Of a stretch of DNA of 64,000 bases, positions 3,893-64,000 are shown piece by piece (position 1 is the stretch's first letter; each line of letters begins with the position of its first letter). A program made the translations under genes and the position numbers. The stretch is from Trypanosoma brucei (lineage: Eukaryota), in contig CP000068.1 in the NCBI GenBank assembly GCA_000002445.1, positions 1-64,000 on the forward strand. The letters are read 5' to 3'. Below the pieces are notes generated by a model. It ran no database searches, was not told the origin of the DNA, and saw nothing but the letters and a program-made list of their open reading frames with translations.

Positions 3893-5605
3893 TTTTGTTC
3901 AACTTTATGTAATTAAACCCTTTTCTTTAAAAGTATTTACGAAGATAAGTCACCATTTTCTCGCTTTTCTCGTGAAAATTATAAACATAATACACTAAAA
4001 AACATTTTCGACGGGAAGGTTTTTCACCAATTCGAATATTTTGAATTGAAGAGAAAATGAGGCTCCTCGTTCATCTCATGTTTCCTTCGTTGTGGAATGT
4101 GCGTCATCAATGCATCGCGTCGCACAGCCCGTACAAACTTATTGGCAGCAAAGGCATAAAGGCTAGCTCCCGTTCCAATCTACCAACATTGGAAACCGCA
4201 CCGCCAGGTTTTTGGAAGTTGTCAGTCTCTCGCCGCGGTGACGGGTTTAGAGGAATATAGTCGGCAGCTAGTACAGGTTTTTTCCATTCGGTAAGCGTGG
4301 AGGCATGTCAACACTTGATACACTCTCAACCCTTGAGATGTTATGTTTTCCTCGCATGAAGAAAGCACTGGTTTATGTTGGCGGCTCCTCAACTGCAAGT
4401 AAAAGTTAAGATGTTATTTTTTCCCCGTCAATCACACTCTCCAGTAACAAACCAATCTCCAACACATAACGGTGGAAAAGGCATTCTAGTCCAGGACGCA
4501 CAAATATGTGATACAGATCTTTACACTCAGTAGCGTAACCATGTTCGTTTTCTGGCTGAATTAAATGTTTGGCGCTTTGATGCGCTAAGTGTATTCCTCC
4601 CCAGTGCAATCCTCTACAGCAATGGGGTCTTACCCAACGGTAGACTCAATACTTCAATACCGAAGCTCCGTGACGACTTTGTTGGAGTCTGATATTTGGG
4701 AACGAGGTAGGCGTTCATTTCCTTGGGAAAGTTGATTATACCGCTCACCAATGCGTGTTAATGCTGGTACTGAGGGCATTGGGTTTCCCGTTCATCAGAA
4801 GTAATTGTCGTCTCAGTCGGTAGTATTTCACTTTCCTCTGTCACTTACCATCATGGCTCCGTACTTGCTGTGTTTCCCTTCGGTTGATTTTGATAGTTCC
4901 GAGCTATTGCTCTCGGATAAGACGCCTTTACATCCAATTTATCTACAAAGTCACAGTGAATTTCATTATAGTGAATCTGTTGGTGTACTCTCTTAATTTG
5001 TTGGGAAAATTAAATTCATTGCCTTTTTAATCTCCTACTTCTATTTTCTGATGTAACGTGTCTCTTGAAGGCATAAATAGCTGTTAGGGGCGCCACACTA
5101 CGGTGTTCAACCCCTTGATGCATTGTATCATCTTCCACTCTTTGCCTTTACAGATTTCCTTTTTGAATTTTCTTCGTGCCTTCGTGAGAGTTTCCCCCCA
5201 CTGGCGCGGCCATCAGCCATCACCGTAGAGCCCTGAGATGCTATCGGTCTGGCGACTGTGGCAGAGTCTCCCTTTTTTTTATTCATTCTAACACACTCTC
5301 TATAATTTTTGTTGTAGCTCCACAGTTGAACGGAATACAGCAGATGGGGCGAGAAGCCCCCCACCCCAGACTCTCCCAAAGATGTCAATTAGCAATCCTT
5401 TTGTTTTGATTTTTGTTATTCGTTTATTATTCTCTCCCCCTCTTTTTGTTTGTGTTGCTTGTTGATTGCATACCTCCTCTGTCTCTGAGGGTGTCTGGAC
5501 TATTCCTGCGTCCGGTGCTTTTCCTGCTAGCTACACTCTCGGCAATAAGGGGGGAAGTTGCAGAAGGGAGAGTGGGTTGTATGACTGTTACATTAGGTGA
5601 GGACT

Positions 5606-6856
5606 TCACCTGCGGCCGGCTCCGTTCAACCGCAATGAGAAACTGTGCCAGCCTTTTAGAGAAACATATATCCTGCACACACACACACCTTCTACCGCAA
5701 ACCCGACACGTAACTCCTTCAAACTGGGACAGCTCATCAAGTGCAGCGACGTTTCTTCGCAGTCGCCGCGTTGGCTGGTAACAGCGCGCTCTACCTTCAT
5801 ACCGTGCATCTTCTTTTGATGTAGGGTGAGGCCAGTTTTGCTAGCACACTGCCTTCCGCATGCCGGGCACACCAACATGGATGCGTTTGTATGCGGGGAA
5901 TCAGTGGCACACAATTTTGTGCTTTTGCTGCATTTAAGCTCGACTCCCTCACCTTTGTGGAAAGCCTTACAGTGTCGGATGAGGGAGTCCCTGCAACTGA
6001 GCACTTTTTGGCACACACCACACTGCACCTCGCCTTTCCCCGGGACGTCAACGTTTCCCTCACGGGCACGCTTACGAGGGAATTGCACCAACACCACAAA
6101 GTTACCTCCCTCCGTCACTATGTTCTTATGTTTGAATTTCTTGTGTAGTGACAGGGAAGAGCGTGTATCGAAGCTCGCCTCGCACAGGTCACATTGAAAC
6201 GGCAGCTTCCGTGTATCCTGAGGGGCTGGCGCTGCTGGGACGCTACCATCTCCTTTCACTGAGTCTTCGTTCTCTCGCCCCCTTTTCACGCAGCAACTAC
6301 CGCTACCTATGCCATGTATTGTTTGAAGGCTGTGTAATAGTCGGCCTGGCACTACGAATTTGGAGGTACAGAGGGTACAATGAAGCACCTGCGGTCTCAT
6401 CGGGACTCGTGTGCTCGATGGTAGAGGAACGATCGCCAGCACTGGAGGGGGCTCCGGGGGGATGTCCACTGCAGGTGTTGCATCGCCGTATTTGATCCTC
6501 CTGAGGGCATCAGCTCGCACAAAGCCATGTTTGTTTACCATATGCGTTACAGCACTCGAGCGACATTGGCATGTGGCATCACATTCCGTACATTTGGTCG
6601 GTTCGGAGGTTCTCTGAAGAGTGCGTGTCGCAACAGTTGGGGGCATTCGTATTGTTGGCCCTATCGCTGCATGTTGTGGGTTACACCATCGGCACTGCGG
6701 AGGCACACTCGGGTTGATCTTTCGCAACATCCATCCATAGTGTCTTGAAGATCCAACCCGAAAGCGTGCCAGTGCCGTTTCTTCCTCCCTCGTCAGTTCT
6801 TCTTTATGTTTTGTTGGAAAGTGGTTGCCCGTGATACCAAACCTATGAGTGTTCAC
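5606..6856 (-). pseudogene. ingi ORF segment 3: C-terminal C2H2 zinc-finger domain.
   Basis: 416-aa ORF with repeated C-x2-C...H-x3-5-H motifs: CDLCEASFDTRSSLSLHKKFKH, CGVCQKVLSCRDSLIRHCKAFH and CPACGRQCASKTGLTLHQKKMH. Confidence 0.8.
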
Positions 6857-6862
6857 ATGGAC

Positions 6863-9412
6863 TTATTCCGATCTAAGCACTCGGTTCGCATAAGCAATGA
6901 TGTCGGGGATCCATGTATTTCGCAACTGTGGTAAATCAGCGGCCTTTTTGGCCATGTCATCGCAAACCTCATTCCGTTTCACGCCACAATAGCCAAACAC
7001 AAATTGCAGTCGGATACGTATCTTCCTTCTCTGAACTTGAAGCAGAAGCCTCCATAGTCGTCTTAGAATTGGGTTCGTTACGGCTAGGGGGCCTGTCTGC
7101 AGTGCTGTTAACATTGACAGCGAGTCAGAGAAGATGAACAACCTGCTCGGTGTGCTTCTGTATGCCGGAAGCCATTTCAGCAGCCGTTGCAGTCCTATCT
7201 CTAATGCTACGCATTCCGCTCTGTAACTGCATGAGAGTTCCCCTGCTCCGGTTTTGGGTGCGCAAATCAGCGTGTTGTTTCTATAGAGCAGGGCAGCTGC
7301 TCCGGACTTCTCACCGAGGGACACGGATCCATCAGTCCACAATTCGTAGTGCTCTCGCCGCGGTGGCTCCTTCCCCCTCCGTGCAAAATGCCGTTCAATC
7401 CACTTTTCGGAAGCCTCCCTTTTGAAATCGTCAGGGTCATCAGCGCACACAGGCTTTATCTGCGTGTGAAATAGCGGTCGGCAGCTGTAGCGGAGCGTCG
7501 ATGTCTCTAGTGGGTGCTCGCGTGGTTCAATGCGGAGGTGGGAGTAGGACCGCATGATGCGGGAATGTAGGGCTCTGACTGGATGTTTGCTGTGATATAC
7601 TTCTTCAGCACTGCGCCGCAAACATCCGCCTCGTGACTCACACATCAGCATGAATTTCATACTGCGCACAAGAGTGGTTGTCTTGAGTGGCAGGAGGTTT
7701 GCTTCCGGCAGAGAGTCCTCTTTGCGCGTCCCATGCGGTATGCCGGCTATGATGCGACTGACTTTGTGTTGTGCTGCTGCAAGGAGGTCGAGACTTTGTT
7801 CCGAAGCGTCCCAGTACCATACCTCAATGCCATACATGGTGTGTGCCTGTACGAGTGCTAGATAAAAAGCTCTCAGTACTTGTCGTCTTGGCCCCCATGT
7901 AGAAGCTGAGATGGCTGCTATCTGCAGTAGTCTGAAGTCCATCTTGCGTCTCGTTTCGGCCGCATGTGTTGCCATCCCCTGCAGACACTGGAATGTTACT
8001 CCTAGAAGCTTCGGTGTCCTGTCAGCTCCTATTCTTTCGCCGTCCAGTTGCAATGTAAGGGGGTGGCGCTCTATACACCCGAAGAGTGTGCACTTTGTTT
8101 TCGCTACATTGACAGACATGAAGTACTCTTGTGACCACTGTAACACCACGTTGAGACCGCACTGTAGTGTGTGGTTGATGACATCCCTCTCTGTGTCCCT
8201 CGCAAGTAGCGTCGGGTCGTCTGCAAAGAATCCGTGCTGCAGTAACGGCACTTCTGCAAGGCGTTGGCTCAACGAGTTCATGGCAATAATGAACATGATT
8301 GGGCCAATGACAGTTCCTTGTGGCACTCCTCGCTCAAATGTTCTGCTTCTGGAAAGCTTCTCCTTGAATCTCACTCTGCCAGTTCGGTTACTCAGAAATG
8401 ATAGGCACCACTTCACAATGTGGGGTGATACCTTCATTCTGTGCATTTCCCTCGCAATTTTGTCGTGGTCTACTGTATCGAATGCCTTCTCGTAGTCAAC
8501 AAATACAGCACCCGTACGATATTGGTGCGCGGGACGGCAGAGGGCAGCGCGGACGTGCAGGAGTTGTTCGAGCGTTGAGCATCCGGGGCGAAAGCCTGAC
8601 TGCTGCGGCGTCAGCTGGGACTCAACAGTGTCTCTAAGCCTCGCGGCAATTATGCGCTCCATGACTTTGCAGAGACAGCTCGTGAGCGTCACAGGCCTGT
8701 AAGAATCGAGGTCCTCCGCCTTTTTTCCGGCCTTCAGGATGGGGATGATAACACCAGTCTTCCATGCAGGCGGCACGACTCCCGTTCGTAGGCCCTCATT
8801 GAATAGCCTCAGAACAACATTCAGCGCTGTTCTGCCGAGATGTTGCAGTGCCTCGTTGTATAAGCAATCAGGTCCGGCTGCGGATCCACTCGGTAGCAGT
8901 TTGATCGATCTCCGTAGTTCAGCCATCGTGATGGGACTGAACTCACTCGCTATCGTCTTTATTGGTGCCGGTGGGTGTGAGTCGGGGTTCCTTCTTGCGC
9001 GGGACGAGTACAGTTTACTGAACCTCTCAGCTTGACGGTAGTCCGTGATGGCCGCGTTATCAACAAGTACAGCCGGTGTGGTTAGTGGTCGTGGCGCATA
9101 TACTTTCTTGACAATGTGCCAACTGCAGCGGTCTGACACCGCAAGTCTGGAGCATAGCGTGCTCCATCTCTTCTTTGTGGTACGGTCCAGGATCTGCTTA
9201 CGCGTGGCTACCAACTTTTTCCTTCGGTGGGAGGGTCCGCATCCAGCTATCTCTTCATCGAGTTTCGCGAGCTCAGGTGTCCAATGTGGTGGCGTTGCTC
9301 TGCAGCCACGGGGGACGGAGACCTTCGTCGCAACGCGGATGGCGGAGCACAATTTCTGTTCCGGGGTGTTGACGTTCTTCCCTCTACCAATTTTTCCTGC
9401 AGGGCTCGTCAA
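6863..9412 (-). pseudogene. ingi ORF segment 2: reverse transcriptase and RNase H.
   Basis: 849-aa ORF. RT motifs PQGTVIGPIMF and HGFFADDPTLLA (YXDD-type). An RNase H-like motif ELWTDGSVSLGEKSGAAALL lies near the C-terminus. A stop at 6860-6862 separates it from the next segment. Confidence 0.85.
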
Positions 9413-10358
9413 TCTTGTGACGGAAATTCCTCCAGTTAGCTTTTAGCCATGCGTACATGGGCTTTCGAAGCCGCGGGCAACTCAGTGCATCTGTGTCGTC
9501 TCCAACGATAACTTCGAAAAATATGTTATGGTGATCGCTATCGGGAGAATACAGCGATGTCCACGTGTACACTGTGCAATTCCTTGACAGTGTCACATCA
9601 GGGGTGGACTCTCCGTGGTGGCGCGCGTACCTGGTGCACTCACCGGTGTTGCAGACCAGAAACTGGTTGTCAATGCACCACTGTGTGAGGGTTTCACCCT
9701 TGGTATTTGGTGGGCTCGCGCGATCCCATGCCAACGCGTGTGCGTTAGCGTCTGCACCGATGAGCTGGGCACCGTCAGTCGTCAGAAGCGTATCTAGGTC
9801 AGTTGCCGTGAAGGTGTGTTTTGGTGGGATGTATGCCGACGTGACAGTCAGCGCCGCTCCACGTGCAAGGTAAATTGTTGCATGCACTTGTTCAATGCGA
9901 CCAACAACGGCCATACCGGTCTCGACTGGTAGGTCCTCCCTCACTAGTATTGATACACCACCTCCTTTGCAGTTACGAGCTATTCCGTGATGTTGGTAGC
10001 CAGCAACACTAAAGCAAACCGCCTCTCCAGGTGTCATCCTTGTCTCGCTCAACAGAAAAAAGTTAATCCGCTCATCAACAAGGGTTTTGTGGAGTGCTAA
10101 TCTCTTTCCTTGAGATAGCCCGGCGCAGTTACACTGCATCCCGCGCAATAACTGGCTGAGATTCTCTTCCACATCACCGGACAGCAGCATCTTAGTGCGG
10201 ATGATGCTGCTGATGGCACGCTGGCACGTGCCCAGGGACCGACAAATGAAAAACGGTGTCCCAGCAAGACGCTGCTGATCCCTGTGCTGTATGATGCCGT
10301 AGCCGGAGCAAAGCAGTGTTCCCCATGAAAGGAACGCTGCTGGCTCTTGGCTTCCCAA
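9384..10358 (-). pseudogene. ingi ORF segment 1: AP-endonuclease (APE-like) domain.
   Basis: 324-aa ORF at the 5' end of the element. It overlaps the next segment at 9384-9412 in a different frame, so there is a frameshift. Confidence 0.75.
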
Positions 10359-10418
10359 TCGATTTCTCTTCTGTTACTGGACCTTGGCACCACGTTAAGA
10401 TGGCCGGCATCGCCAGGG
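10340..10418 (-). promoter_or_regulatory. Pr77-like internal promoter/5' hallmark sequence of ingi (first ~79 nt).
   Basis: Reverse complement of 10340-10418 begins CCCTGGCGATGCCGGCCATCTTAACGTGG.... This is the conserved first ~79 nt shared by ingi, RIME, DIRE and L1Tc, recalled from established knowledge. Confidence 0.7.
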
Positions 10419-35328: not shown

Positions 35329-35430
35329 TAATAATAATAAATAATAATAATAAATAATAATAATAATAATAAATAATAATAATAATAAATAATAATAATA
35401 ATAATGATAATAATAATAATAATAATAATG

Positions 35431-35462
<32 letters not shown>

Positions 35463-35520
35463 TAATAATAATAAATAATAATAATAATAATAGGAGAGTG
35501 TTGTGAGTGTATCATTATTG
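35329..35520 (+). repeat. 70-bp-type VSG upstream repeat with a greatly expanded (TAA)n/(TGA) tract (~165 bp). Marks the upstream boundary of the VSG array.
   Basis: A long run taataataaataataat...gataataat ends in AGGAGAGTGTTGTGAGTGTATCATTATTG. This matches the 70-bp repeat core (..AGAGTGTTGTGAGTGTGTATATACGAATATTATAATAAGAG) recalled from established knowledge. Confidence 0.8.
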
Positions 35521-37755: not shown

Positions 37756-37809
37756 CATTTTGAAAATTGTTGCGGAAATTTATTAAATTTATAACAATTT
37801 CTTAATAGT

Positions 37810-41034: not shown

Positions 41035-41050
41035 TTGAAATATTCTAACA
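41035..41050 (+). promoter_or_regulatory. Degenerate VSG 3'UTR 16-mer (TGAAATATTCTAACAC).
   Basis: Matches 13/16 of the TGATATATTTTAACAC consensus. Followed by CTTTTCGATGAAAGTG, as downstream of the other VSGs. Confidence 0.5.
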
Positions 41051-44660: not shown

Positions 44661-45186
44661 AACTCTAAGTGTCAAGACAAAATATACACACGTAAAACAA
44701 TGGCGAGGGTACTAGGAGAGGGTGAGTGGTTGAGAAAAAAGAATTCATCAGGGATATTGTTATAAAAAAGATTTGACGAGACGAGGGGAGAGTATTATGC
44801 GCACTGTGAAGTGGTCGAATAAACATAGAATGTGTAACTAGGTTTATATAAAGCTGAACTCTGAAACAAAACATAGACTTTCACAAAATATAAGCTGCAT
44901 ATACTGATCATACACACTTCAACAGCTATATCATAACAGTGTAAAGTTATTAGTTACATGTAAATACACAGTCTCCTTACCTAAACAGCTTAGTATCACA
45001 ACTTACTTTTTCTCCAGTTTTTTTAAGCATTTCCTATAATCCTACCAATTTTTAAAGATTAATTAGCACATGAAATTTGATGTATTGAGGGTTTTATTGC
45101 TATTACGTTTAGTATGTCTAAGCTAAATATCTTTTGAAGGTGATGAAATATATAACGAAATATTTATAACAGAAAATGTGCAAAAG

Positions 45187-45900
45187 AATCTTAGACTATT
45201 TGTGGTTGTAGTTCAAAAGAATGCAACTAAAGGATGGTATAGGCTCATATTGAGTGCCAAACTAAGCAATATTGAAATTATTACAATTGCGATGGGAGAT
45301 TTATATAGTCATGTTAAAAGGACTAGATGGGTTGTGGAATTCATAGAAAGTAAGAATGCAAGTAATAAGGATGTTGTAATTCATTTGGATGGGTCTGATG
45401 TTATTGTTAGTGAGAAAGATAAGAATGAGAATGCAGTAAAGTATATTTTATACAAAATAATGCAGATAATGAAAAAAAATTATGGAAGAACATAGTTACA
45501 AAGAACATGTGGAGAGATGTTATTTGCTGTTTTAATGTTGGGCATAGAAAAAAAGAGGATAAGAAGCTACCGCATTTACTAAATAAACTCCAAGTAGAAA
45601 ACCTTATTTAGTGGTGGAGGTTTGATAGCAAGAGTTTTGGCGTTTAAGAAATTTGAATATGGATTTTAAGAGTTACTAAAGGCAAGTGAGGAGTGGCAGT
45701 CGGAGCAAAGTATCTACAAAACCTTGCTATTTTGGAGTGCAAGTCAAGAAGAAGTTGTTGGACAGAGATTTTTTTTGAAGAGAGGAATGATTAGATTGGA
45801 ATATGAGGAGGGATTCTTTTCTATTCCCAATAGTGGGGTGATTGGAGAAGTTCTATTTATTCATTTTCCAGGACAACTAATTGCATAGCAGGAGAAAGTA
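45187..45900 (+). repeat. Conserved ~740-bp inter-cassette element (co-transposed-region-like), copy A. Contains a small conserved ORF (45178-45495, 105 aa).
   Basis: Visibly homologous to 57589-58340: GAATCTTAGACTATTTGTGGTTGTAGTTCAAAAGAATGCAACTAAAGGATGGTATAGGCTCATATTGAGTGCC.... Both copies lie between a 70-bp repeat and the next VSG. Confidence 0.6.
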
Positions 45901-46533
45901 AAATTGACTGTGAAATATCCTGCTTGGTTAAGCTGTCTGCGAACAAGACAAGTTAATACGATAGGTTTGGAGACAATTCAAACTGATAAAATAGGTGGAA
46001 GGGAATGGTTTATTAAATATGGAGAGATTGGTGGTGAAGTGTTTAAACTGTGGAGTTATTAAAATCTAAGAAGATGCAATAGGTGTCTGTAACTGACACG
46101 TATCAGTAGGCTTAAGTTGAAATAAAAGCACATTAATGAACCATACGGATAGATTTACCTAAACAGATTTTTATAGTTTCCAACCGTTAAGCTGCCTATC
46201 ATTGGTTGCTGAAGAAGAGACACAGTAACACCAGTGTCTTTTTTCTTCTATAGTTGTGACACCAAGGTAACTGCCTTACAGGAATAAAAGTAACCGGTAA
46301 ATTACTAAGTCTCCATTTTTTCGATGTTTTGAGAAAAACAATAACAGCACCGATTTCTTGAAAATATAAATAAAAAGTGGCACACTGACGCAAATTAATG
46401 TTGGTTTTAAAGCTTTAATGCCGAACAGTCCGCTCCGGCCAAAAAAAAATAAGTTGAACTATTTTTTGAAGGAACCGAGACTGATTGCCTTTTCGCTGGA
46501 ACCTGTTTTCATTAAGGAAAAAAATCAGAGACA

Positions 46534-48165
46534 ATGATCCGGAGCCTCGAATCCCTCGCGATTATATGGCTGTATACAGCAGCTGTAGCAGCTTATGCGG
46601 CTCAACTGCGCGCCAATGACCTAGCCGACGATTTGGGGCCCTTTGCGGTGCCATAAATCTAGCGCTAACTGAGCCCAAGGTGCAATCAGCGCCAACCGAA
46701 GTGGAAGAGCTAACCCTTGCTGTAGGCGTAATTAATCTTACTTTGGCACCCAAGAACCTAACCGATCTTATCGATTTGCAGAAGACACTTGACCAACTCA
46801 CCGACAGACCAACAACCCCAAAAGACGGCGACGAACTAAACAAGTGGAAAGCGCACTGGGACTTTTGGCAGAAAAGCAAGAAGAAGACGGAAGAACAGGA
46901 CTCAAAAAAAAAGTTACGCCGCGTGGAAGCAAGTAAAACTTTCTGAGAGAAGCCGCAAAGCGCTGCGAGCAAGCGCTGAACTTGCATACACACTCTTAAA
47001 CAAAGCCAAAGTGGAATAACTCAAACTCGCGGACAAGAACATCAAAAAACAACTGTCACAGTCACTCTACGGACCTGGCGGAAGCGAAACAGTAGATCAG
47101 ACGTACACAGGCAGCAACAGAGCCGCAAAATGCGGAAAACATGAAAGCCTAAAAGCCAGCCATGCAGGTAGCTCTTTACGATTTGACATTCAATGCCTCT
47201 GCGGTTTCGCAACAGGTGACAGCGACACCGGCAAGACCTGCTGCACAGGCTGCGGCGCAGACGTGGCCGGCACCAACCTGGGGCCAGCGAACTGGGACGG
47301 CAGCAAAGACAGCAAACCGCTGTAGCAAACGCTCAAAACAGAATGCCAAAAACTTAGTCACCACCTCACGCTATCAACCAGCTCCGTCAATGCGGTCCTT
47401 AGGTCATTTCATAACCGCCTAGAGCGAAAAAAGGCGACACCGGCGAAGCGACCTTACATTTACCGGAGAATACGGCCGGACTGGCCAGCAGTGACTACAC
47501 CGGCAGCGGTGACACAAACGGCGGTCGATGGGTACACTACAAAGTGGACTACTTCGCTGCCGGCACAACCAGCGTGCCTTGGGTAACTGCATTTTAAACA
47601 GCAGCAGCAGAAGCAGACGGCTCCAGTAAAGCTGAAGCAGCGCTTGAGGCGATCAAACTCCAGCTGGAGACACTAAACGCTACCAACGCGGCGCTAATCT
47701 ACGACACAGAGATCAACAACCCGACTAACGACGAACAACGCCGACAACCGCGATGCAAGAACAAGAAAAAGCCCAGAAAGAGGCAGCCGAAAAGTTTGCA
47801 ATGAAGCAAAAGAAGACCAGAAAGAATGCGCAAACTTAAAGGAGAAATGTTGTGTTTATAAGGAGGATGGGGGGAAGGACGAAAAGTGCATATTGAGTGA
47901 GAATGCCAAAAGGGAAGCAGAAAAAGAAGCTGCAAAGGAAGGAGAAGGAGAGGCTGGAGATACAGCTGGGTGTTCAAGACACGGCATTGATAAGGCAAGA
48001 TGTGAAAATGACAAAAAAGGCGACAAACACAATTATGCGTTTATAAATGGCAATGATAGCCAAGAGGGGAAAGACAAAGTTAAATACCAAAATAGTAATT
48101 TTCTCATCAATAAGAAATTAGTTCTGAGTATGGATTCTGCTTTTGTGAGTTGGGTACCATTTTGA
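46534..48165 (+). pseudogene. VSG: VSG pseudogene (cassette 4). Start codon and signal peptide are present, but the body has multiple frameshifts and stops.
   Basis: ATG at 46534 gives MIRSLESLAIIWLYTAAVAAYAAQLRAND. Fragments follow at 46680-46946 and 47162-47422. C-terminal ORF 47893-48165 ends ...KYQNSNFLINKKLVLSMDSAFVSWVPF, which is a GPI signal. Confidence 0.75.
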
Positions 48166-48410
48166 GTATTCTGAGGATGTTTGCTCGGTTTTATCAAATT
48201 TTGGAAATTAGCCAAATTTTCTGTTTTCACATAGTTTTATAATGTTAATAACATTTTATATATCTTAAGACTTTTTGATGAAAGTGTAATAACTTCGAAA
48301 ACATTAATTTTTTGTATGAAAGTAGAGTATGGGTGCAATGTATTAAGATGACAGTGTGTGAAAAATAAATTCATTCCAATCCATCTATTCTATGAATATT
48401 TTTAGGGTTA

Positions 48411-50400: not shown

Positions 50401-51924
50401 ATGGCGAAAATAGTAGGGATTGTCCTAGGGTTACTTGTAATCGCTGACACTCTCCGTAGCGGCCACGCTGCTGGAACGTACGGCGTCACAAAAGCCAGTT
50501 GGCAGCCGCTCTGTGAAGCGACCACAGACCTGAGAACTATTCCGTCAGATGTGGCAGCAAACCTCAAAGCCGGAGTAACAAAAGTTAAAAACATGATCCT
50601 TGACTCCACAAGGGCGGCAATATACAGTCAACTTCAAAAAGGCACCAAAGAAGCGGCCCGGGTAATAACTATTTCATTGTACATGCTGGGAGCAGCTTTA
50701 CGCGCGGTAAGTTACCTGGAGTCCACCGACATAATCAACGGCGTGGACCTTGCGGCAAAGAGTGCGTACTTAAAAGGGCACATCGATGAATTTTTAAAGG
50801 TCGCAGAAAAGACAACAAGGTCAGGGGAACATTGTTTACTGGCTGCCGGGGACACCGGCGCGGCCACATTTGCAGGAGAGTCGCTAAATAGAGTTAACTG
50901 CCCGACCACCATGGTCGACACAACACCGACGAAGGCGTCACTAAAGAAACTATCCAGCAAAGGCCACAAAGGAGCGATGACACCAAGCAACGGAGGCAGC
51001 CACGAGCACCAAGCAAGCGGAACGTACAGGTGCAGGCTGTTTTCAAAGAGCAACGCCAACGGCCTTGCGCACTCCGGCGGCAACGTAGAAGACGGCATAA
51101 AATGGGCAGGAGGCTACTACAGCCTACACAGCACACCAGATAATCCACTGACAGTAGCGGATCTACGCGAAACGCCGGACACGCCACGAGAAGCGAGCAC
51201 AGCATGGCAGCAGGTTTTTACAGCAATATCAAAAGCACCGAACAGCGAGTCAGCCACATACACCAATAACTCAAAGGCGATTGACTCAGACACAGAAGCA
51301 ACCGAACTTCTGTCCCAAGTACTACACAACGAAAAAGGGGAAAATGCCGAAGACATAAAAAAAATGCGTGATGACATTTTTACCACCAAACTTGCAAGCG
51401 TTGTTGACAGCACCTTCGCTAATATTCATAACGCCAAACTACCGGCCAAAATCTCAGGTATTGACAAAGGCAAATCGCTAGGAGAAATCACAGCACCAAG
51501 CGACCTCGCAGCGTTGCTAGCAGCTTTGCTCCGCAAAATAGACACGGAGGTAGCGACACTCAAGAAGAAGCTCGAAACAACAAATGAGCGCCCAGACCCA
51601 GTAAGCGAAGCCACGTGCAATACAATCAAAGGTGAAGCAGACTGCAACAGAGCGGCAGCGTGTAGATACAACACAACAGAAACTTACGAAAATAAAAAGT
51701 TCCAATTTAATGCCTCAAAAGCTTCAGCAAGCGGTGTCCCTGCACCACAACCTCAAACTGGAGGAACCGAAACGACAACAGAAAAATGCAAAGGGAAAGG
51801 AGAGAAAGATTGCAAATCTCCGGATTGCAAATGGGATGGAAAAGAGTGCAAGGATTTCAGTTTTCTTGTAAATATGAAACTTGCTCTGAGTATTTCTGCT
51901 TTTATGAGTTTGGTAGCATTTTAA
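50401..51924 (+). CDS. VSG: Intact variant surface glycoprotein (507 aa) with signal peptide, N-terminal domain, two-subdomain C-terminal domain and GPI-anchor signal.
   Basis: Uninterrupted 507-aa ORF. Starts MAKIVGIVLGLLVIADTLRSGHAAG. The C-terminal domain has characteristic Cys spacing (...EKCKGKGEKDCKSPDCKWDGKECKDFSFLVNMKLALSISAFMSLVAF*). The 16-mer TGATATATTTTAACGC lies 45 bp downstream and a 70-bp repeat ~1.8 kb upstream. Confidence 0.9.
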   Translation: MAKIVGIVLGLLVIADTLRSGHAAGTYGVTKASWQPLCEATTDLRTIPSDVAANLKAGVTKVKNMILDSTRAAIYSQLQKGTKEAARVITISLYMLGAALRAVSYLESTDIINGVDLAAKSAYLKGHIDEFLKVAEKTTRSGEHCLLAAGDTGAATFAGESLNRVNCPTTMVDTTPTKASLKKLSSKGHKGAMTPSNGGSHEHQASGTYRCRLFSKSNANGLAHSGGNVEDGIKWAGGYYSLHSTPDNPLTVADLRETPDTPREASTAWQQVFTAISKAPNSESATYTNNSKAIDSDTEATELLSQVLHNEKGENAEDIKKMRDDIFTTKLASVVDSTFANIHNAKLPAKISGIDKGKSLGEITAPSDLAALLAALLRKIDTEVATLKKKLETTNERPDPVSEATCNTIKGEADCNRAAACRYNTTETYENKKFQFNASKASASGVPAPQPQTGGTETTTEKCKGKGEKDCKSPDCKWDGKECKDFSFLVNMKLALSISAFMSLVAF

Positions 51925-51968
51925 GAATACTTTTAAGTTTTATAAGATTCACTAAATTTGTTATTATT

Positions 51969-55966: not shown

Positions 55967-56910
55967 CCTTATGCACGGAGCAGAATTTTGTTACGCTTTG
56001 TTCGACGGTTTTTGTTTCTGTGGCGCATAATTGTATTTTTTATATTTTTTCATTAGTGATGCAGCGGCTCTTTTTTAAAAAACAGCAAGACTGGTGCCTA
56101 TTTCCACTGGAGACATTCTCTCTTTATTTTGTACTTGAATTTTAATCTCCCACCGTTACGCTTACGTTAAATTTGTTTTTTAATTTTAGCTGTGCGTTTT
56201 GCGCGCTTTGCGCGGCTTTGCATTTTTTAAAACGGTGGCGCGTGGAGGTTTTGCTGCGCCAAACAATTTGGTTTGTAAGGGAAAATAAATTTAAAAATAC
56301 TAATATTTGGGGAATAGCCGATTATGAAAATTGGAAATTAAATATAAGCGGCACGATCTGTCGCTGCCACCCCACAATTAAAGACGCTCGGCTGCCAGGG
56401 GTGCGTTTTTAACTTCAAATCCGATGAGAGAAAGCATGCAGCAACAGCAACAGGAGATATAGCAACAGATAAGTGCGCTTCCGCATAAAATGCTGAGGGC
56501 TGTGTCAAAATAAGTGGCCCGATTCCTAAAGGAAAGAAAGCTTTTTGTGGTTGTATTACTTACATTGATGGCCAGGACACAGTAATTCATGTTTTTCTCT
56601 CTTCCAGTTTGTTTGTAACCAAAACTTTTCTCTGATGGCTGCTTCCTGTGAGAGTTTCGCAGTATTTTAGTGACTTAAGAATTTTTTCTCAATTTTATAA
56701 ATTTTTGTGAAATTTACTAAATTTTGATATGTTTAAATACCTTTGTGAGGCCTTTAAAAAATATGAAAATTTTAGTAAATTTCACAAAAATTTATATGAT
56801 AACAGCCTATGGGAGTCATGTGACAGAGTGATAGTGTGTCAAAAGAGATTTATGATCTGAAATTTAATATTTTTAATTTTATGAACACTAGTTAGCGGTA
56901 CAATATTACT

Positions 56911-57055
56911 GATAAGGATAATGATAATGATAATAATAATAGGAGAATGTTGTATGTATATACGAATATTATAATAAGAGCAGTAATAATAATAATAATA
57001 GTAATAATGATATGAAACTGTTGTAAGTGTGTAAATACTAATGCTACAATGAAAT
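56911..57055 (+). repeat. 70-bp-type repeats, ~2 units.
   Basis: GATAAGGATAATGATAATGATAATAATAATAGGAGAATGTTGTATGTATATACGAATATTATAATAAGAGCAGTAATAATAATAATAATAGTAATAATGATATGAAACTGTTGTAAGTGTGTAAATACTAATG. Confidence 0.8.
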
Positions 57056-57588
57056 TAGTAGTGAAGCCAAAGTAGACAACCAAGAATAATAGAATTCAAA
57101 ACAAAGGAGAGGGAACAATCGATGTGATGAAGTGAAAGCAAATTATGAAGAATATCATTGAAGGAAAAAAAGATAGATAGAATGTTCGTAGTGTTGTACA
57201 CAAATATAAAAATGGCGATCATCTGACACAAGGAGATGAAGAAAAGAGAAAGTTCAATGTACAAGTGAAATAAAGTCTACGTTACCTATAGTGAGAGAGG
57301 AAACTAAGGACCATAAATTTTGATATTTTACATTTAGATACAGGGCGGAATATTTTTTAATTGAGAGTGGAAACTTTTCGAACAAATTAGAGAAGCTGCG
57401 TGACTGATTTTCGCTCTTCAACTTTCTATTTTTCTCATAACAACTACAAATTTCACATGTATAATGGGACATGAACTTAATTATCTTGGCAGTTTTACTG
57501 GTTCTGCTGTCCTTAGTGTGTTTAACCTCGATAACCCTCAAGATGATAAAATAAATAACAAAACAGAAATGAGAGAATGATCTTAAGA

Positions 57589-58340
57589 ATCTTAGACTAT
57601 TTGTGGTTGTAGTTCAAAAGAATGCAACTAAAGGATGGTATAGGCTCATATTGAGTGCCAAACTAAGCAATATTGAAATTATTACAATTGCGATGGGAGA
57701 TTTATATAGTCATGTTAAAAGGACTAGATGGGTTGTGGAATTCATAGAAAGTAAGAATGCAAGTAATAAGGATGTTGTAATTCATTTGGATGGGTCTGAT
57801 GTTATTGTTTCTGATGGAGAAAAATATGAGAATTCTGTAAAGTATATTTTATACAAAATACTGCTTATAACAAAAAGAAATTTAGTGAAGATGAAATAGT
57901 GAAGGAGGAACAAATATCCCCTATTCTATTCATGACAACATCAGAGTGTTATACTCCTCAATTATATGTGATTATAAATTCGTATCATAAAGAGCGTGCG
58001 GAGAGGTGTTATTGGTTTTTAAATGTTGGATACAGGAAGAAAGAGGATAAAAAATTATCTCATTTGCTGAAATCATCTCCTAGTGCAAACATTATCTTAC
58101 TGAAGGTGGTGTCATATCAAGAGTTTGTGCACTTAGGAAATTTGAATATGCTTTTGGAGAGTTATTGAAAGGAAGCGATGAATGGTGGTGTTAGCAAAGA
58201 ATTTACACACCTTTGCTAATTTTGAGTGTGATTCAAGAAGAAGCTGTTGGACAGAGATTTGTTTTGAAGAGAGGAATGGTTTGATTGGATTATGAAGAAA
58301 GATTCTTTTCTACTCCCCTAGTGGTAAAAATGGACTAGCG
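57589..58340 (+). repeat. Conserved inter-cassette element, copy B. Contains ORFs 57603-57899 (98 aa) and 57899-58168.
   Basis: Near-identical to copy A across the first ~230 bp (ORF MVVVQKNATKGWYRLILSAKLSNIEIITIAMGDLYSHVKRTRWVVEFIESKNASNKDVVIHLDGSDVIVS). Divergent but alignable afterwards. Confidence 0.6.
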
Positions 58341-58595
58341 CATTTATTCATTTTCATGTAGCCACTTGCATGGGAATAAAAAAGCAAAATTTATTGTGAA
58401 AATGTTTCTCGGTATAAATAATTTTGAAGAAAACAATTTATTACGAATGACTTGAGGGAAATCGAAACTTCTTCAATAAAAGGGGGAAAATGGGAACTTA
58501 AACATGTAAAGGTTTGTAGTGTTTTTTGAGAGTGGTAGAATTTTTTAAAGTGGAAAAGCTCGAGAAGAGCCAAAGCAAGGCACAGTAGACGGCAG

Positions 58596-59825
58596 TTGTT
58601 CCCAGCTTTTCATGTTAATATTGGTTTCCTGCTGCGGTTACAGCGTCCGAGAATGTCACGCGACCGACCTGTTCCTTCAAGCCTGAAAACTAACACCCTA
58701 GCGCAAATGCAAAGTAAACTCTCTACGCTGCCCGCAGCGCAGACATTCGTTTTGCTTCGCCTGGCGATAACTGTCCATGTTTCCGATTCTAACATCGGGG
58801 CCGGGGAAAATGGAGCATACTACGCCGCGGCATGCTCCATTGTAAGCACGTTGGAAGGGGCAACAAAAATCACAGAAGGCGGCAACTCAGTGGACAGCTT
58901 ACTAGGTGATATCAACGCGATAAACCTTTCGGCCGCGGACCCAGCATTCAGGAAATTAATTAACCCTGAAAAAGACTGGGCGGATTCAGCGGCAAAAGAA
59001 GAGGTAGGTACAAACAGCTTTGCTTCAGACTGGGAAAAACGCTACGGATCGTGGAGGGCGGCGGCGGTTAAAATAAAAAACAACGAAGCAGCGTACTCAG
59101 AGTTCAAGCGCGAGAAAATCTCATCTGTAGCTCAAAAGACAATACGAGCAGCAACCGAAGCAGAAACGGCACTATCAACTGACTCAGCGCTGTGCGACCA
59201 AAAAAGCAAGATACAAACCATGGTTACCAATGCAAAAGCAGCACTGTATGAATCGGAGACAGGAAATGACGACGAGCAGGCGCCGGACCTAACCAACCGC
59301 ATCAATAAATGCGGAAAGGACGACGGAACTGGCGGTGACATCGCCGGGGAAAGTCTGAGAACGGACATAATCTGTATATGCTCGAAACAAGGCGGCGACA
59401 CCGGAAAGTATTGCTGCGAAGGCTGCGACGGTGCACCGGCAACAGCGTGGGCGGCCAAAACAAACAGCCCAACGATCTGGAAAGCACTCAAGCAAAACTG
59501 CGCGACCCTCTACCCAACTATTCCGCTAAGCACAGCAACATTAACGACGGCCGTAGCACACCTGCTCTCTTTAAGCTTAAAAGCACAAGGCATAACAACA
59601 CCCAAACAATTTTTTCTGGGAACACTGCTAACCACCGGAGCACAAGGCTGTGCCGGAAGTTCCGCAAACACATATGGCTATTGGGTTCGATACAAAACAA
59701 CTACGGCAGGAGCCTTAACATCAGCAAGCATACCATGGCTAACGCCTGCCAAAGAAGCCGCTGCAGCAGATTCTATAAAGCAAAACCAACAGAAGATCGC
59801 TAGAATTGAACTTTTTCGAATTTGA
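58596..59825 (+). pseudogene. VSG: VSG N-terminal domain (409-aa ORF) truncated at its 3' end by the ingi insertion. There is no C-terminal domain or GPI signal.
   Basis: B-type-like N-domain with Cys spacing ...ICICSKQGGDTGKYCCEGCDGAPAT.... The ORF stops at 59823-59825, exactly where ingi copy 2 homology begins at 59822. No CTD cysteines or hydrophobic tail are present. Confidence 0.75.
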
Positions 59826-60264
59826 ATTTTCTCCCTGCCTTCGTGGGAGTTTCCCCCCACTGGCGTGGCCATCAGCCATCACCGTAGAGCCCTGAGATGC
59901 TATCGGTCTGGCGACTGTGGCAGAGTCTCCCTTTTTTTTATTCATTCTAACACACTCTCTATAATTTTTGTTGTAGCTCCACAGTTGAACGGAATACAGC
60001 AGATGGGGCGAGAAGCCCCCCACCCCAGACTCTCCCAAAGATGTCAATTAGCAATCCTTTTGTTTTGATTTTTGTTATTCGTTTATTATTCTCTCCCCCT
60101 CTTTCTGTTTGTGTTGCTTGTTGATTGCATACCTCCTCTGTCTCTGAGGGTGTCTGGACTATTCCTGCGTCCGGTGCTTTTCCTGCTAGCTACACTCTCG
60201 GCAATAAGGGGGGAAGTTGCAGAAGGGAGAGTGGGTTGTATGACTGTTACATTAGGTGAGGACT

Positions 60265-60774
60265 TCACCTGCGGCCGGCTCCGTTCAACCGCAATGAGAA
60301 ACTGTGCCAGCCTTTTAGAGAAACATATATCCTGCACACACACACACCTTCTACCGCAAACCCGACACGTAACTCCTTCAAACTGGGACAGCTCATCAAG
60401 TGCAGCGACGTTTCTTCGCAGTCGCCGCGTTGGCTGGTAACAGCACGCTCTACCTTCATACCGTGCATCTTCTTTTGATGTAGGGTGAGGCCAGTTTTGC
60501 TAGCACACTGCCTTCCGCATGTCGGGCACACCAACATGGATGTGTTTGTATGCGGGGAATCAGTGGCACACAATTTTGTGCTTTTGCTGCATTTAAGCTC
60601 GACTCCCTCACCTTTGTGGAAAGCCTTACAGTGTCGGATGAGGGAGTTCCTGCAACTGAGCACTTTTTGACACACACCACACTGCACCTCGCCTTTCCCC
60701 GGGACGTCAACGTTTCCCTCACGGGCACGCTTACGAGGGAATTGCACTACCACCACGGTACCATCCTCCGTCAC
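60265..60774 (-). pseudogene. ingi copy 2 ORF segment (C-terminal zinc fingers, 169 aa).
   Basis: CGVCQKVLSCRNSLIRHCKAFH and CPTCGRQCASKTGLTLHQKKMH, near-identical to copy 1. Confidence 0.8.
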
Positions 60775-60897
60775 TATGCTCTTATGTTTGAATTTCTGGT
60801 GTAGTGACAGGGAAGAGCGTGTACCGAAGCTCGCCTCGCACAGGTCACATTGAAACGGCAGCTTCCGTGTATCCTGAGGGACTGGCGCTGCTGGGGC

Positions 60898-62493
60898 TCA
60901 ACCATCTCCTTGCAATGAGTCTTCGTTCTCTCGCCCCCTTTTCACGCGGCAACTACCGCTATCTATGCCATGTATTGTTCTAAGGTGGTGTAATAGTCGG
61001 CCTGGCACTGCGAATTTGGAGGCACAGATGGTACAATGAAGCACCTGCGGTCTCATCGGGACTCGTGTGCTCGATGGTGGAGAAACGATCGCCACCACTG
61101 GAGGGGGCTCCGGGGGGATGTCCACTGCAGGTGTTGCATCGCCGTATTTGATCCTCCGGAGTGCATCAGCTCGCACAAAGCCGTGTTTGTTTACCATATG
61201 CGTTACAGCACTTGAGTGGCATTGGTATGTGGCATCACATTCCGTACATTTGGTCGGTTCGGAGGTTTTATGAAGAATGCGTGTCGCAACAGTTGGGGCT
61301 GTTTGTATTGTTGGTCCTATCGCTGCATGTTGCGGGTTACACCATCGGCACTGTGGAGGCACACTCGGGTTGATCTTTCGCAACATCCATCCATAGTGTC
61401 TTGAAGACCCAACCCGAAAGCGTGCCAGTGCCGTTTCTTCTTCCCTCGTTAGTTCTTCTTTATGTTTTGTTGGAAAGTGGTTGCCCGTGACACCAAACCT
61501 ATGAGTGTTCTCATGGACTTCTTCCGACCTAAGCACTCGCTTCGCATAAGCAATGATGTTGGGGATCCATGTGTCTCGCAACTGTGGCAAATCTGCAGCC
61601 TTTTTGGCCATTTCATCACAAACCTCATTCCGTTTCACGCCACAATGGCCAAACACAAATTGCAGTCTGATACGCAACTTCCTTCTCTGAACTTGAAGCA
61701 GAAGCCTCCATAGTCGTCTCATAATTGGGTCCGTTACTGCTAGGGGGCCTGTCTGCAGTGCTGTTAACATTGACAGCGAGTCAGAGAAGATGGACAACCT
61801 GCTCGGTGTGCTTCTGTATGCCGGAAGCCATTTCAGCAGCGGTTGCAGTCCTATCTCTAATGCTACGCATTCCGCTCTGTAACTGCATGAGAGTTCCCCT
61901 GCTCCTGTCTTAGGTGCACAAATCAGCGTGTTGTTTCTATAGAGCAAGGCAGCTGCTCCGGACTTCTCACCAAGGAACACGGATCCATCAGTCCACAATT
62001 CGTAGTGCTCTCGCCGCGGTGGCTCCTTCCCCCTCCGTGCAAAATGCCGTTCAATCCACTTTTCGGAAGCCTCCCTTTTGAAATCGTCAGGGTCATCAGC
62101 GCACACAGGCTTTATCTGCGTGTGAAATAGCGGTCGGCAGCTGTAGCGGAGCGTCGATGTCCCTAGTGGGTGCTCGCGAGGCTCAATGTGGAGGTGAAGG
62201 TAAGACAGCATGATGCGGGAATGTAAGACTCTGACTGGGTGTTTGGTGTGGTATACTTCCTCAGCACTGCGGTGCAAACATCCGCCTCGTGACTCACGCA
62301 TCAGCATGAATTTCATGCTGTGCACAAGAGTGGCCGTCTTGAGTGGCAGGAGGTTTGCTTCCAGCAGAGAGTCCTCTTTGCGCGTCCCATGCGGTATGCC
62401 AGCTATGATGCGACTGGCTTTGTGTTGTGCTGATGCAAGGAGGTCGCGACTTCGTTCCGAAGCGTCCCAGTACCATACCTCAATGCCATACAT
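60898..62493 (-). pseudogene. ingi copy 2 ORF segment (RNase H and zinc fingers, 531 aa).
   Basis: Near-identical to the C-terminal part of 6863-9412 plus the N-terminal part of 5606-6856. Here this is read in one frame, so the stop that separates those segments in copy 1 is absent. Confidence 0.8.
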
Positions 62494-62789
62494 GGTGTGT
62501 GCCTGTACGAGTGCTAGATAAAAAGCTCTCAGTACTTGTCGTCTTGGCCCCCATGTAGAAGCTGAGATGGCTGCTATCTACAGTAGTCTGAAGTCCATCT
62601 TGCGTCTTGTTTCGGCCGCATGTGTTGCCATCCCCTGCAGACACTGGAATGTTACTCCTAGAAGCTTCGGTGTCCTGTCAGCTCCTATTCTTTCGCCGTC
62701 CAGTTGTAATGTAAGTGGGTGGCGCTCTATACACCCGAAGAGTGTGCACTTTGTTTTCGCTACGTTGACAGACATGAAGTACTCTTTTG

Positions 62790-63872
62790 TCACCATTGTA
62801 ACACTACGTTGTGGCCACATTGCAGTGTGTGGTTGATGACATCCCTCTCTGTGTGCCTCGCAAGTAGCGTTAGGTCATCTGCAAAGAATCCGTGCTGCTG
62901 CAACGACACTTCTTCAAGGCGTTGGCTCAACGAGTTCATGACAATAATGAACATTATCGAACCAGGGACAGTTCCTTGTGGCACTCCTCGCTCAAATGTT
63001 CTGCTGCTGGAAAGCTTCTCCTTGAATCTCACTCTGCCAGTTCGGTTACTCAGAAATGATACGCACCACTTCACAATGTGGGGTGATACCTTCATTCTGT
63101 GCATTTCCCTCGCAATTTTGTCGTGGTCTACTGTATCAAATGCCTTCTCGTAGTCAACGAATACAGCACCCGTACGATGTTGGGGCGTGGGGCGGCAAAG
63201 GGCAGCGCGGACGTGCAGGAGTTGTTCGAGCGTTGACCATCCGGGGCGAAAGCCTGATTGCTGCGGCGTCAGCTGGGACTCAACAGTGTCTCTAAGCCTC
63301 GCGGCAATTATGCGTTCCATGACTTTGCAGAGACAGCTCGTGAGCGTCACAGGCCTGTAAGAATCGAGGTCCTCCTCCTTTTTTCCGGCCTTCAGGATGG
63401 GAATGATAACACCAGTCTTCCATGCAAATGGCACGACTCCCGTTCGTAGGCTCTCATTGAATAGCCTCAGAACAACATCCAGCGCTGTTCTGCCGAGATG
63501 TTGTATTGCCTCGTTGTATAAGCAATCAGGTCCGGCTGCGGATCCACTCGGTAGCAGTTTGATCGATCTCCGTAGTTCAGCCATCGTGATGGGACTGAAC
63601 TCACTCGCTATCGTCTTTATTGGTGCCGGTGGGTGTGAGTCGGGGTGCCTTCTTGCGCGGGACGAGTGCAGTTTACTGAACCTCTCAGCTTGACGGTAGT
63701 CCGTGATGGCCGCGTTATCAACAAGTACAGCCGGTGTGGTTAGTGGTCGTGGCGCATATACCTTCTTGACAATGTGCCAACTGCAGCGGTCTGACACCGC
63801 AAGTCTGGAGCATAGCGTGCTCCATCTCTTCTTTGTGGTACAGTCCAGGATCTGCTTACGCGTGGCTACCAA
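62790..63872 (-). pseudogene. ingi copy 2 ORF segment (reverse transcriptase, 360 aa).
   Basis: Contains GVPQGTVPGSIMF and HGFFADDLTLLA. Homologous to the RT part of copy 1. Confidence 0.8.
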
Positions 63873-64000
63873 CTTTTCCCTTCGGTGGGAGGGTCCGCAT
63901 CCAGCGATCTCTTCATCGAGTTTCGCGAGCGCAGGTGTCCAATGTGGTGGCGTTGCTCTGCAGCCACGGGGGACGGAGACCTTCGTCGCAATGCGGATGG

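What the first reader, a model, noticed from the sequence alone, without database searches (positions are those of the whole stretch)
58596..59840. ingi insertion truncates a VSG exactly at the N-domain/C-domain boundary
The 409-aa VSG N-domain ORF ends at 59825. Homology to the ingi 3' end (shared with copy 1 at 5163) begins at 59822. The VSG has no C-terminal domain, GPI signal or 16-mer. Either an ingi retrotransposed into the VSG, or ingi-mediated recombination deleted the VSG 3' end. In either case a retroelement has remodelled the VSG repertoire directly, and the remaining N-domain could still act as a mosaic donor.
Basis: seen in the sequence. Interest (0 to 1): 0.6.

Follow-up and report, generated by a model that had tools for sequence, protein, structure and literature searches.

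The report
VSG pseudogene cut short by ingi
In a silent surface-antigen (VSG) gene array of the Trypanosoma brucei TREU927 reference genome, one B-type VSG gene stops about 20 codons before the end of its N-terminal domain because the 3' end of an antisense ingi retrotransposon sits there; this is an ordinary kind of lesion for these arrays.

Summary
ORF 58596-59825 is a B-type VSG N-terminal domain (Pfam VSG_B, E 5e-43). Its real start is probably ATG 58707, giving 372 codons. A minus-strand ingi begins at 59821-59824 and matches copy 1 at 95.8% over 4.18 kb. No C-terminal domain, GPI signal or 16-mer follows within the window.

"Exactly at the N/C boundary" is loose. VSG homology ends at 59808, which is residue 368. 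That is about 3-7 residues before the end of the Pfam N-domain model and 16 residues before the end of a crystallised N-domain. It is about 40-50 residues before the C-terminal-domain model. Some 114-170 residues of a full-length VSG are missing.

A 78%-identical T. equiperdum paralog runs on past this point into a decayed C-terminal domain, GPI signal, 16-mer-like element and 70-bp repeat. The truncation is therefore derived.

The stop codon is built from the ingi tail and terminus. Twelve unassigned bases (59809-59820) separate VSG from ingi.

Most likely the ingi retrotransposed into the VSG. Whether the VSG 3' part survives beyond the ingi 5' end, about 1.08 kb outside the window, could not be checked.

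The locus is TREU927, on a contig the size of chromosome 5. Both elements are of known kinds, so interest is low.

The parts
56889..57037 (+). 70-bp-repeat remnants upstream of the VSG cassette
   Evidence: These are members of repeat families D2 and D9, which also sit upstream or downstream of the other VSGs in the window. TRF reports an array at 56971-57016.
57513..58401 (+). VSG upstream (cassette) region shared with another cassette in the window
   Evidence: It is 89% and 75% identical to 45109-45915. The T. equiperdum contig L001 aligns from 57769 onward.
58596..59825 (+). the ORF as reported (TTG start, 409 aa)
   Evidence: The ORF list gives these coordinates. The first 37 codons lie upstream of the start shared by the homologs.
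58707..59808 (+). B-type VSG coding sequence that is really VSG: signal peptide plus N-terminal domain, lacking its last ~16-21 residues
   Evidence: Pfam VSG_B matches at E 5e-43. It is 94% identical to Lister 427 VSG-1553 and 35% identical to the full-length VSG 1125.4202. PDB 8b3w matches at E 7e-17 over residues 29-368. A full-library search found 126 relatives at E <= 0.001. DNA homology to T. equiperdum L001 ends at 59808.
59682..59684 (+). TGG (Trp) codon where relatives have a conserved Cys
   Evidence: The window reads YGYWVRYK. P0001 and the T. equiperdum DNA (ggctattgcgttcga, L001 ~2856-2870) give YGYCVRYK. The other 11 B-type VSGs in alignment A3 all have Cys in that column; the 13th row, the T. 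equiperdum fragment, starts downstream of it.
59809..59820 (.). 12 unassigned bases, AACTTTTTCGAA (TTCGAAAAAGTT in ingi sense), between VSG and ingi
   Evidence: Only 2 of 12 bases match the paralog. The encoded LFRI does not fit the VSG consensus. The sequence is unique in the window. It lies outside the homology between the two ingi copies.
59821..59823 (-). T3 on the + strand, i.e. a 3-base A-run that is the residual ingi tail
   Evidence: It aligns with the T5 run at 5160-5164 of copy 1.
59824..64000 (-). ingi copy 2: the 3' 4.18 kb of a degenerate element that runs off the window; its 5' end is predicted at about 65076
   Evidence: It is 95.8% identical to copy 1. It carries RVT_1, RNase_H and C2H2 zinc-finger domains, and the ORF is broken into pieces of 360, 531 and 169 aa.
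5165..10418 (-). ingi copy 1, full length, used as the reference for the element's ends
   Evidence: Its 5' signature CCCTGGCGATGCCGG... is exact at 10386-10418. It carries AP-endonuclease, RT, RNase H and zinc-finger domains in three broken ORFs. No 12-bp target-site duplication was found.

Best explanation
An ingi non-LTR retrotransposon integrated by target-primed reverse transcription, in antisense orientation, into a silent B-type VSG gene of a subtelomeric array. The integration point is at VSG codon 368/369, within the last helix of the N-terminal domain. The VSG + strand ending ...GCTAGAATTG-3' (59808) would have served as primer. The cDNA then starts with a short, heterogeneous A-rich tail (AAATTCGAAAAAGTT in ingi sense, 59809-59823) followed by the complete ingi 3' terminus. 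The VSG reading frame runs 4 codons into this filler and stops at a TGA made from the tail and the ingi terminus.

The result is an N-domain-only VSG pseudogene. It keeps its upstream 70-bp-repeat remnant but has lost its last N-domain helix, hinge, C-terminal domain, GPI signal and 3'UTR 16-mer, at least from this side of the element.

Shown: the identity of both partners, the positions of both homology ends, and the derived nature of the truncation. Inferred: the TPRT mechanism, the nature of the 12-nt filler, and any future use of the fragment as a donor for segmental (mosaic) gene conversion.
For: The ORF is a VSG_B domain and the homologs are VSGs.

Homology between the two ingi copies ends at the same element base in both, with unrelated flanks. 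This defines the natural 3' terminus, and the VSG abuts it within 15 nt. A deletion or end-joining breakpoint would not be expected to land on the element's terminus.

The T. equiperdum paralog L001 continues past the breakpoint with the conserved ILNxK helix, a decayed C-terminal domain, a GPI signal (DSSFLANKKLVMS...), a 16-mer-like element and a 70-bp repeat, and has no ingi.

Lister 427 VSG-1553 (94% identical) reads, in a shifted frame, to the equivalent of 59803. The 3' part of the fragment is therefore not an assembly oddity of one strain.

The literature describes ingi/RIME as retroposons with poly(dA) ends, 12-bp target-site duplications and a T-rich motif upstream (PMC3820030, PMC2323293). 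It also describes them as agents of indels and rearrangements between T. brucei genomes (PMC2854126).
Against: The ingi 5' junction lies outside the window. No target-site duplication and no VSG 3' remainder could be seen.

The tail is not a clean poly(A): 12 bases are of unknown origin.

The neighbouring ingi copy 1 has no target-site duplication. Ingi flanks in this subtelomere have therefore been reshuffled at least once.

Both ingi copies are degenerate and differ from each other by about 4%, so the event is old and secondary rearrangements are plausible.
Confidence: 0.65

Rival explanations
1. The present arrangement is the product of recombination rather than a simple insertion. An ingi did insert into the VSG, or lay next to it. 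Later ingi-ingi homologous recombination, gene conversion or a deletion exchanged or removed the 5' flank. Under this reading the VSG 3' part is no longer adjacent and has been lost from the locus.
For: Ingi copy 1, 54.7 kb away in the same orientation, lacks any 12-bp target-site duplication: the best match is 8/12 and is not at the ends. The 12-nt non-VSG, non-ingi spacer could be a remnant of an earlier flank. Published comparisons attribute several T. brucei rearrangements to ingi/RIME recombination (PMC2854126).
Against: Homologous recombination between ingi copies would leave the 3' junction intact. It therefore does not by itself explain why the VSG abuts the exact element terminus. A deletion with one end 12 nt from the terminus would be a coincidence. 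No direct evidence was obtainable.
Confidence: 0.3
2. The junction is an assembly chimera: a repeat-induced misjoin at a multi-copy 5.2-kb element in a subtelomere.
For: Ingi is highly repeated and subtelomeres are hard to assemble. None of the tools gave access to reads or to a second assembly.
Against: A misjoin would be expected inside the repeat, not at the unique/repeat boundary. The unique VSG sequence runs uninterrupted into the complete ingi terminus. Lister 427 VSG-1553 shares the VSG 3' sequence to within 5 nt of the breakpoint.
Confidence: 0.03
3. The ORF is not a truncated VSG but a naturally short VSG-related protein with its own stop codon, like the 'VSG-related' genes at 2864-3892 and 14812-15852.
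For: The window does contain annotated VSG-related genes whose VSG_B match also ends at profile position 342-343.
Against: Those genes match only the second half of the profile. This ORF matches positions 3-342 and has a VSG signal peptide. Its closest relatives are VSGs. The paralog continues into a C-terminal domain and GPI signal. The stop codon is contributed by ingi sequence.
Confidence: 0.02

Closest known systems
ingi / RIME non-LTR retroposons of T. brucei (ingi clade; Kimmel 1987, Bringaud 2004 from own knowledge; PMC3820030)
   Same: The element has the same sequence family, the same domain order (AP endonuclease, RT, RNase H, C2H2 zinc finger), the same 3' terminus as the other copy in the window, and an A-run at the end.
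   Different: The tail is only A3 plus 12 mixed bases rather than a clear poly(dA). The 12-bp target-site duplication and the upstream T-rich motif could not be examined. The ORF is broken, so this copy is not autonomous.
VSG pseudogenes and gene fragments of the TREU927 silent archive (Berriman 2005, Marcello & Barry 2007; own knowledge, papers not held)
   Same: It is a silent array member with an upstream 70-bp repeat. It is not annotated as a protein: it is absent from the protein collection, whereas its neighbours XP_844697-844703 are present.
   Different: From my recollection of those papers, most described fragments are C-terminal pieces. This one is an almost complete N-domain with an open frame, and its breakpoint can be assigned to a named element.
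RHS (retrotransposon hot spot) pseudogenes carrying ingi/RIME insertions (Bringaud 2002/2004; own knowledge)
   Same: A member of a subtelomeric multigene family has been inactivated by an ingi-clade insertion.
   Different: RHS genes are hit repeatedly at one conserved site. Nothing here suggests that VSGs carry a preferred site, since this is a single case.
Lister 427 VSG-1553 (UniProt M4T0F3) and the T. equiperdum OVI VSG_B pseudogene on CZPT02000218.1
   Same: They belong to the same VSG sub-family (94% amino-acid identity and 78% nucleotide identity respectively) and both are also defective.
   Different: VSG-1553 carries a frameshift about 30 codons upstream of the breakpoint. The T. equiperdum copy has frameshifts but retains the 3' half and has no ingi.

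Membership tests
B-type VSG (N-terminal domain, Pfam PF13206) | Significant match to the VSG_B profile over most of its length | tested here: met
   The match scores 148 bits against a cut-off of 25, covering profile positions 3-342 of 352. 126 relatives were found in the representative library.
B-type VSG (N-terminal domain, Pfam PF13206) | Complete N-domain including the last helix with the LNxT/S motif, and the conserved cysteines | tested here: not met
   The sequence ends at 'ARIE'. The following 'xxLxxLNxT...' helix is absent, and one conserved Cys is replaced by Trp.
Functional VSG gene | C-terminal domain (PF10659) and GPI-anchor signal | tested here: not met
   There is no PF10659 hit. 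Nothing after 59830 is homologous to the paralog's C-terminal domain or GPI region.
Functional VSG gene | Conserved 16-mer in the 3'UTR | tested here: not met
   Matches occur only at 41036, 44369, 51969 and 55373.
Functional VSG gene | 70-bp repeat upstream | tested here: met
   Repeat families D2 and D9 have copies at 56889-57037.
ingi retroposon | Sequence identity to ingi and RT / RNase H / zinc-finger coding capacity | tested here: met
   It is 95.8% identical to full-length copy 1, with the expected Pfam domains.
ingi retroposon | 5' 79-bp signature (CCCTGGCG...) | not testable with these tools
   For copy 2 it lies about 1.08 kb beyond the window. It is present in copy 1.
ingi retroposon | 3' poly(dA) tail | tested here: inconclusive
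   Only A3 is present, followed by TTCGAAAAAGTT. Copy 1 has A5.
TPRT insertion event | 12-bp target-site duplication flanking the element, with the interrupted target continuing on the far side | not testable with these tools
   The far side is outside the window. TREU927 contigs are not in the contig index.

The most novel reading that the evidence does not exclude
The 12 bases between the A3 run and the VSG (TTCGAAAAAGTT) are exactly the length of an ingi target-site duplication. They could be the target-site duplication of the progenitor copy, carried along by 3' read-through transcription (a 3' transduction). That would allow the source ingi to be traced and would show that ingi can mobilise flanking DNA into VSG arrays. 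A bolder version is that ingi preferentially hits the stretch encoding the end of the N-domain and so produces N-domain-only donor modules systematically.
Probability: 0.07. Interest if true: 0.45.

Novelty: new member of a known kind. Interest (0 to 1): 0.15.

Why it matters
This locus gives a concrete, base-resolved example of a retroelement creating an N-domain-only VSG pseudogene in the silent archive. It illustrates how the archive decays and diversifies. It does not change the known picture: ingi elements and VSG pseudogenes or fragments are both abundant and well described in T. brucei subtelomeres, and this locus is part of the long-published TREU927 reference. It would matter only if such junctions turned out to be recurrent at this position across VSGs or strains.

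Tried and rejected
Reaching beyond the window. I ran exact-protein contig look-ups for the truncated VSG, the 531-aa ingi ORF and the intact neighbouring VSG, the last both as a DNA reference and as P0004. All returned 'not on record'. The cluster look-up identified the genome as TREU927 but gives no DNA.

The ingi insertion consensus. I looked for the published Tbingi insertion-site consensus so I could test the reconstructed target. The open papers give only the ingi6 signature and a 'T-rich motif' statement. Bringaud 2004 and Marcello & Barry 2007 are not held.

Target-site duplications and the spacer. I looked for a target-site duplication around copy 1, and for a match between copy 2's 3' flank and copy 1's 5' flank. 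Only chance-level 8-9/12 matches turned up. I searched the window for other copies of the 12-nt spacer and of the putative target-site duplication and found none that were informative. I tried to reconstruct an empty site for copy 1 from the duplicated VSG-related segment, but the homology stops at about 4211, well short of the ingi.

Readings rejected. The spacer as a decayed pure poly(A): too many non-A bases for about 4% divergence. LFRI as VSG sequence: it does not fit the family consensus.

Searches not run. I ran no further search on the decayed T. equiperdum C-terminal region. TREU927 pseudogenes have no protein records, so the chance of success was judged very low.

Full report
**What is there.** The window is from Trypanosoma brucei brucei TREU927. 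Five ORFs (2864-3892, 12220-13095, 17942-18610, 25865-26680, 50401-51924) are exact matches to GenBank proteins within the range AAZ11138-AAZ11144 / XP_844697-XP_844703. These lie on a contig of 1,608,198 bp, the size I recall for chromosome 5. From about 36 kb onward the + strand carries a typical silent VSG array. It contains A-type VSG ORFs with or without a C-terminal domain, VSG 3'UTR 16-mers at 41036, 44369, 51969 and 55373, and 70-bp-repeat remnants between cassettes.

**The VSG.** ORF 58596-59825 (409 aa, TTG start) matches Pfam VSG_B (PF13206) at E 5.4e-43 over profile positions 3-342 of 352. Its closest relatives are:
- Lister 427 VSG-1553 (P0001), 94% identical, 366 aa;
- a T. equiperdum VSG_B pseudogene product (P0002);
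- at 35% identity, the full-length EATRO1125 VSG 1125.4202 (P0003, 499 aa).

P0001 and P0002 start at MQSKLSTLPAAQTF, so the true start is most likely ATG 58707 (372 codons). An exhaustive HMMER search found 126 relatives at E <= 0.001. The dozen or so checked are all VSG_B proteins, and the best solved structure is the N-terminal domain of VSG 1954 (8b3w, E 7e-17).

**The ingi.** Window 59821-64000 aligns to 5162-9342 at 95.8% identity with two gaps. On the minus strand it encodes RT, RNase H and C2H2 zinc-finger segments in three broken ORFs. Copy 1 (5165-10418) is full length: it has the 5' signature CCCTGGCGATGCCGG... at 10386-10418 and an AP-endonuclease domain. The two copies stop being alike at the same element base, with unrelated flanks. 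This defines the natural 3' terminus as GAATTTTC... on the + strand, at 59824 and 5165, preceded by T3 and T5 respectively. By the offset between the copies, the 5' end of copy 2 should lie at about 65076, which is 1.08 kb outside the window.

**The junction.** The T. equiperdum contig CZPT02000218.1 (L001) aligns to window 57769-59808 at 78% identity. In a three-way alignment the VSG homology runs through ...ATCGCTAGAATTG (59808). After that point the T. equiperdum sequence continues GAGAAAATATGCACATTCTAAAC..., while the window reads AACTTTTTCGAA (59809-59820), then TTT, then the ingi terminus.

The 12 intervening bases match the paralog at only 2 of 12 positions. They encode LFRI, which does not fit the B-type consensus 'LE xxLxxLNxT'. 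They are unique in the window. The stop codon TGA (59823-59825) consists of the last T of the tail and the GA of the ingi terminus. The ORF therefore ends because the ingi begins.

**How close to the domain boundary.** Residue E368 aligns with residue 369 of P0003. There, Pfam VSG_B ends at 373 and the C-terminal-domain model PF10659 starts at 415. In ten further B-type VSGs of 448-513 aa, VSG_B ends at 369-379. In the eight where Pfam detects it, the C-terminal-domain model starts at 407-423. The equivalent of the break maps to residues 363-374 in full-length relatives, leaving 114-170 residues. The crystallised N-domain 8b3w extends 16 residues beyond the aligned end.

The break is therefore 3-7 residues short of the Pfam N-domain model. 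It is 16-21 residues short of the structural N-domain, since the last helix with the LNxT motif is lost. It is 40-50 residues upstream of the C-terminal-domain model. 'Near the end of the N-domain' is correct; 'exactly at the boundary' is not. With a single event, the position has no statistical meaning.

**The truncation is derived.** Beyond the breakpoint the T. equiperdum paralog carries the following:
- the missing helix (IGENMHILNFKAASAIIKQ);
- a frame-shifted C-terminal domain;
- a GPI signal (DSSFLANKKLVMSMTTSFF...);
- a 16-mer-like element;
- a 70-bp repeat at about 3705.

That 3' region finds the 3' ends of other VSGs in the window (48099-48338, 37679-37790, 51848-51929) but nothing after 59830. 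Lister 427 VSG-1553 carries a frameshift and reads in the window's alternative frame (ORF 59378-59803) to the equivalent of 59803. The 3' part of the fragment is thus shared between strains to within 5 nt of the break. Nothing can be said about an ingi in that strain.

**Mechanism.** The VSG abuts the complete, natural 3' terminus of the element within 15 nt. The simplest origin of this junction is therefore target-primed reverse transcription into the VSG, with the element antisense to the array. The published properties of the ingi clade are a poly(dA) end, a 12-bp target-site duplication and a T-rich motif upstream of the 5' duplication (PMC3820030, PMC2323293). These predict what should be found at the other end, but that end is outside the window. 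Look-ups for TREU927 contigs failed.

Two observations keep a recombination history plausible. Copy 1 has no target-site duplication. The tail of copy 2 is A3 plus 12 mixed bases rather than a clean poly(A). Ingi/RIME-mediated indels between T. brucei genomes are documented (PMC2854126).

My estimates are about 0.65 that an ingi insertion into the VSG made the junction and the locus is otherwise undisturbed. I put about 0.3 on later recombination or deletion having changed the far side. Artefact or a naturally short gene gets a few per cent.

**Donor potential.** The fragment keeps an open 372-codon frame and upstream 70-bp-repeat remnants (56889-57037). It lacks all 3' homology blocks, so it could contribute only by segmental conversion with a crossover inside the N-domain. 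It also has Trp (TGG 59682-59684) where all the aligned relatives have a conserved Cys. Its only close relatives in very large databases are two other pseudogenes. The mosaic-donor idea is reasonable from general knowledge of VSG mosaics but is untested here.

**Novelty.** Both partners are well-known kinds, and the locus belongs to the reference genome published in 2005. VSG fragments and ingi elements are standard components of these arrays. This is a clean, base-resolved instance, not a new kind of thing. Only the 12-nt spacer is unexplained.

Noticed in passing
window 5165-10418 (minus), flanks 5101-5164 and 10419-10480: The full-length but degenerate ingi copy 1 has no 12-bp target-site duplication. 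The best 12-mer match between its flanks is 8/12 and is not at the element ends. This suggests its flanks were reshuffled or have decayed.
   Followed up: partly
window 59682-59684: The truncated VSG has Trp (TGG) where Lister 427 VSG-1553, the T. equiperdum paralog (read from the DNA) and the other 11 aligned B-type VSGs have a conserved Cys. This is a second lesion, independent of the truncation.
   Followed up: yes
window 59809-59820: Twelve bases (AACTTTTTCGAA) belong neither to the VSG nor to the ingi. Their length equals that of an ingi target-site duplication, and their origin is unexplained.
   Followed up: partly
window 2864-3892 and 14812-15852 (both minus): These are two 'VSG-related' paralogs that match only the second half of the VSG_B profile (positions ~154-343). 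They are 66-72% identical and 11,945 bp apart, and they bracket ingi copy 1 and an ESAG-like gene (12220-13095). This looks like an old segmental duplication.
   Followed up: partly
window 50401-51924: This is the only intact-looking VSG in the window (A-type N-domain plus C-terminal domain, 507 aa). It is XP_844703.1, annotated 'VSG, atypical'. It falls in the same 90% cluster as EATRO1125 VSG 1125.4147, so it is shared between strains.
   Followed up: no
window 57513-58401 vs 45109-45915: The upstream region of the truncated VSG is 89% and 75% identical to the region upstream of another, heavily decayed cassette whose 3' end is at about 48099-48338. The two cassettes are related.
   Followed up: no
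window 35329-35492: A long (TAA)n/(TAATAA) tract of about 53 units merges into a 70-bp-repeat-like sequence upstream of the VSG fragment at 36319-37110.
   Followed up: no
L001 (T. equiperdum CZPT02000218.1) 1774-3440: The T. equiperdum relative is itself a pseudogene. It has a frameshift in the middle of the N-domain (the annotated product is only 296 aa) and further frameshifts in the C-terminal domain. All three known members of this VSG sub-family are therefore defective in different ways.
   Followed up: partly
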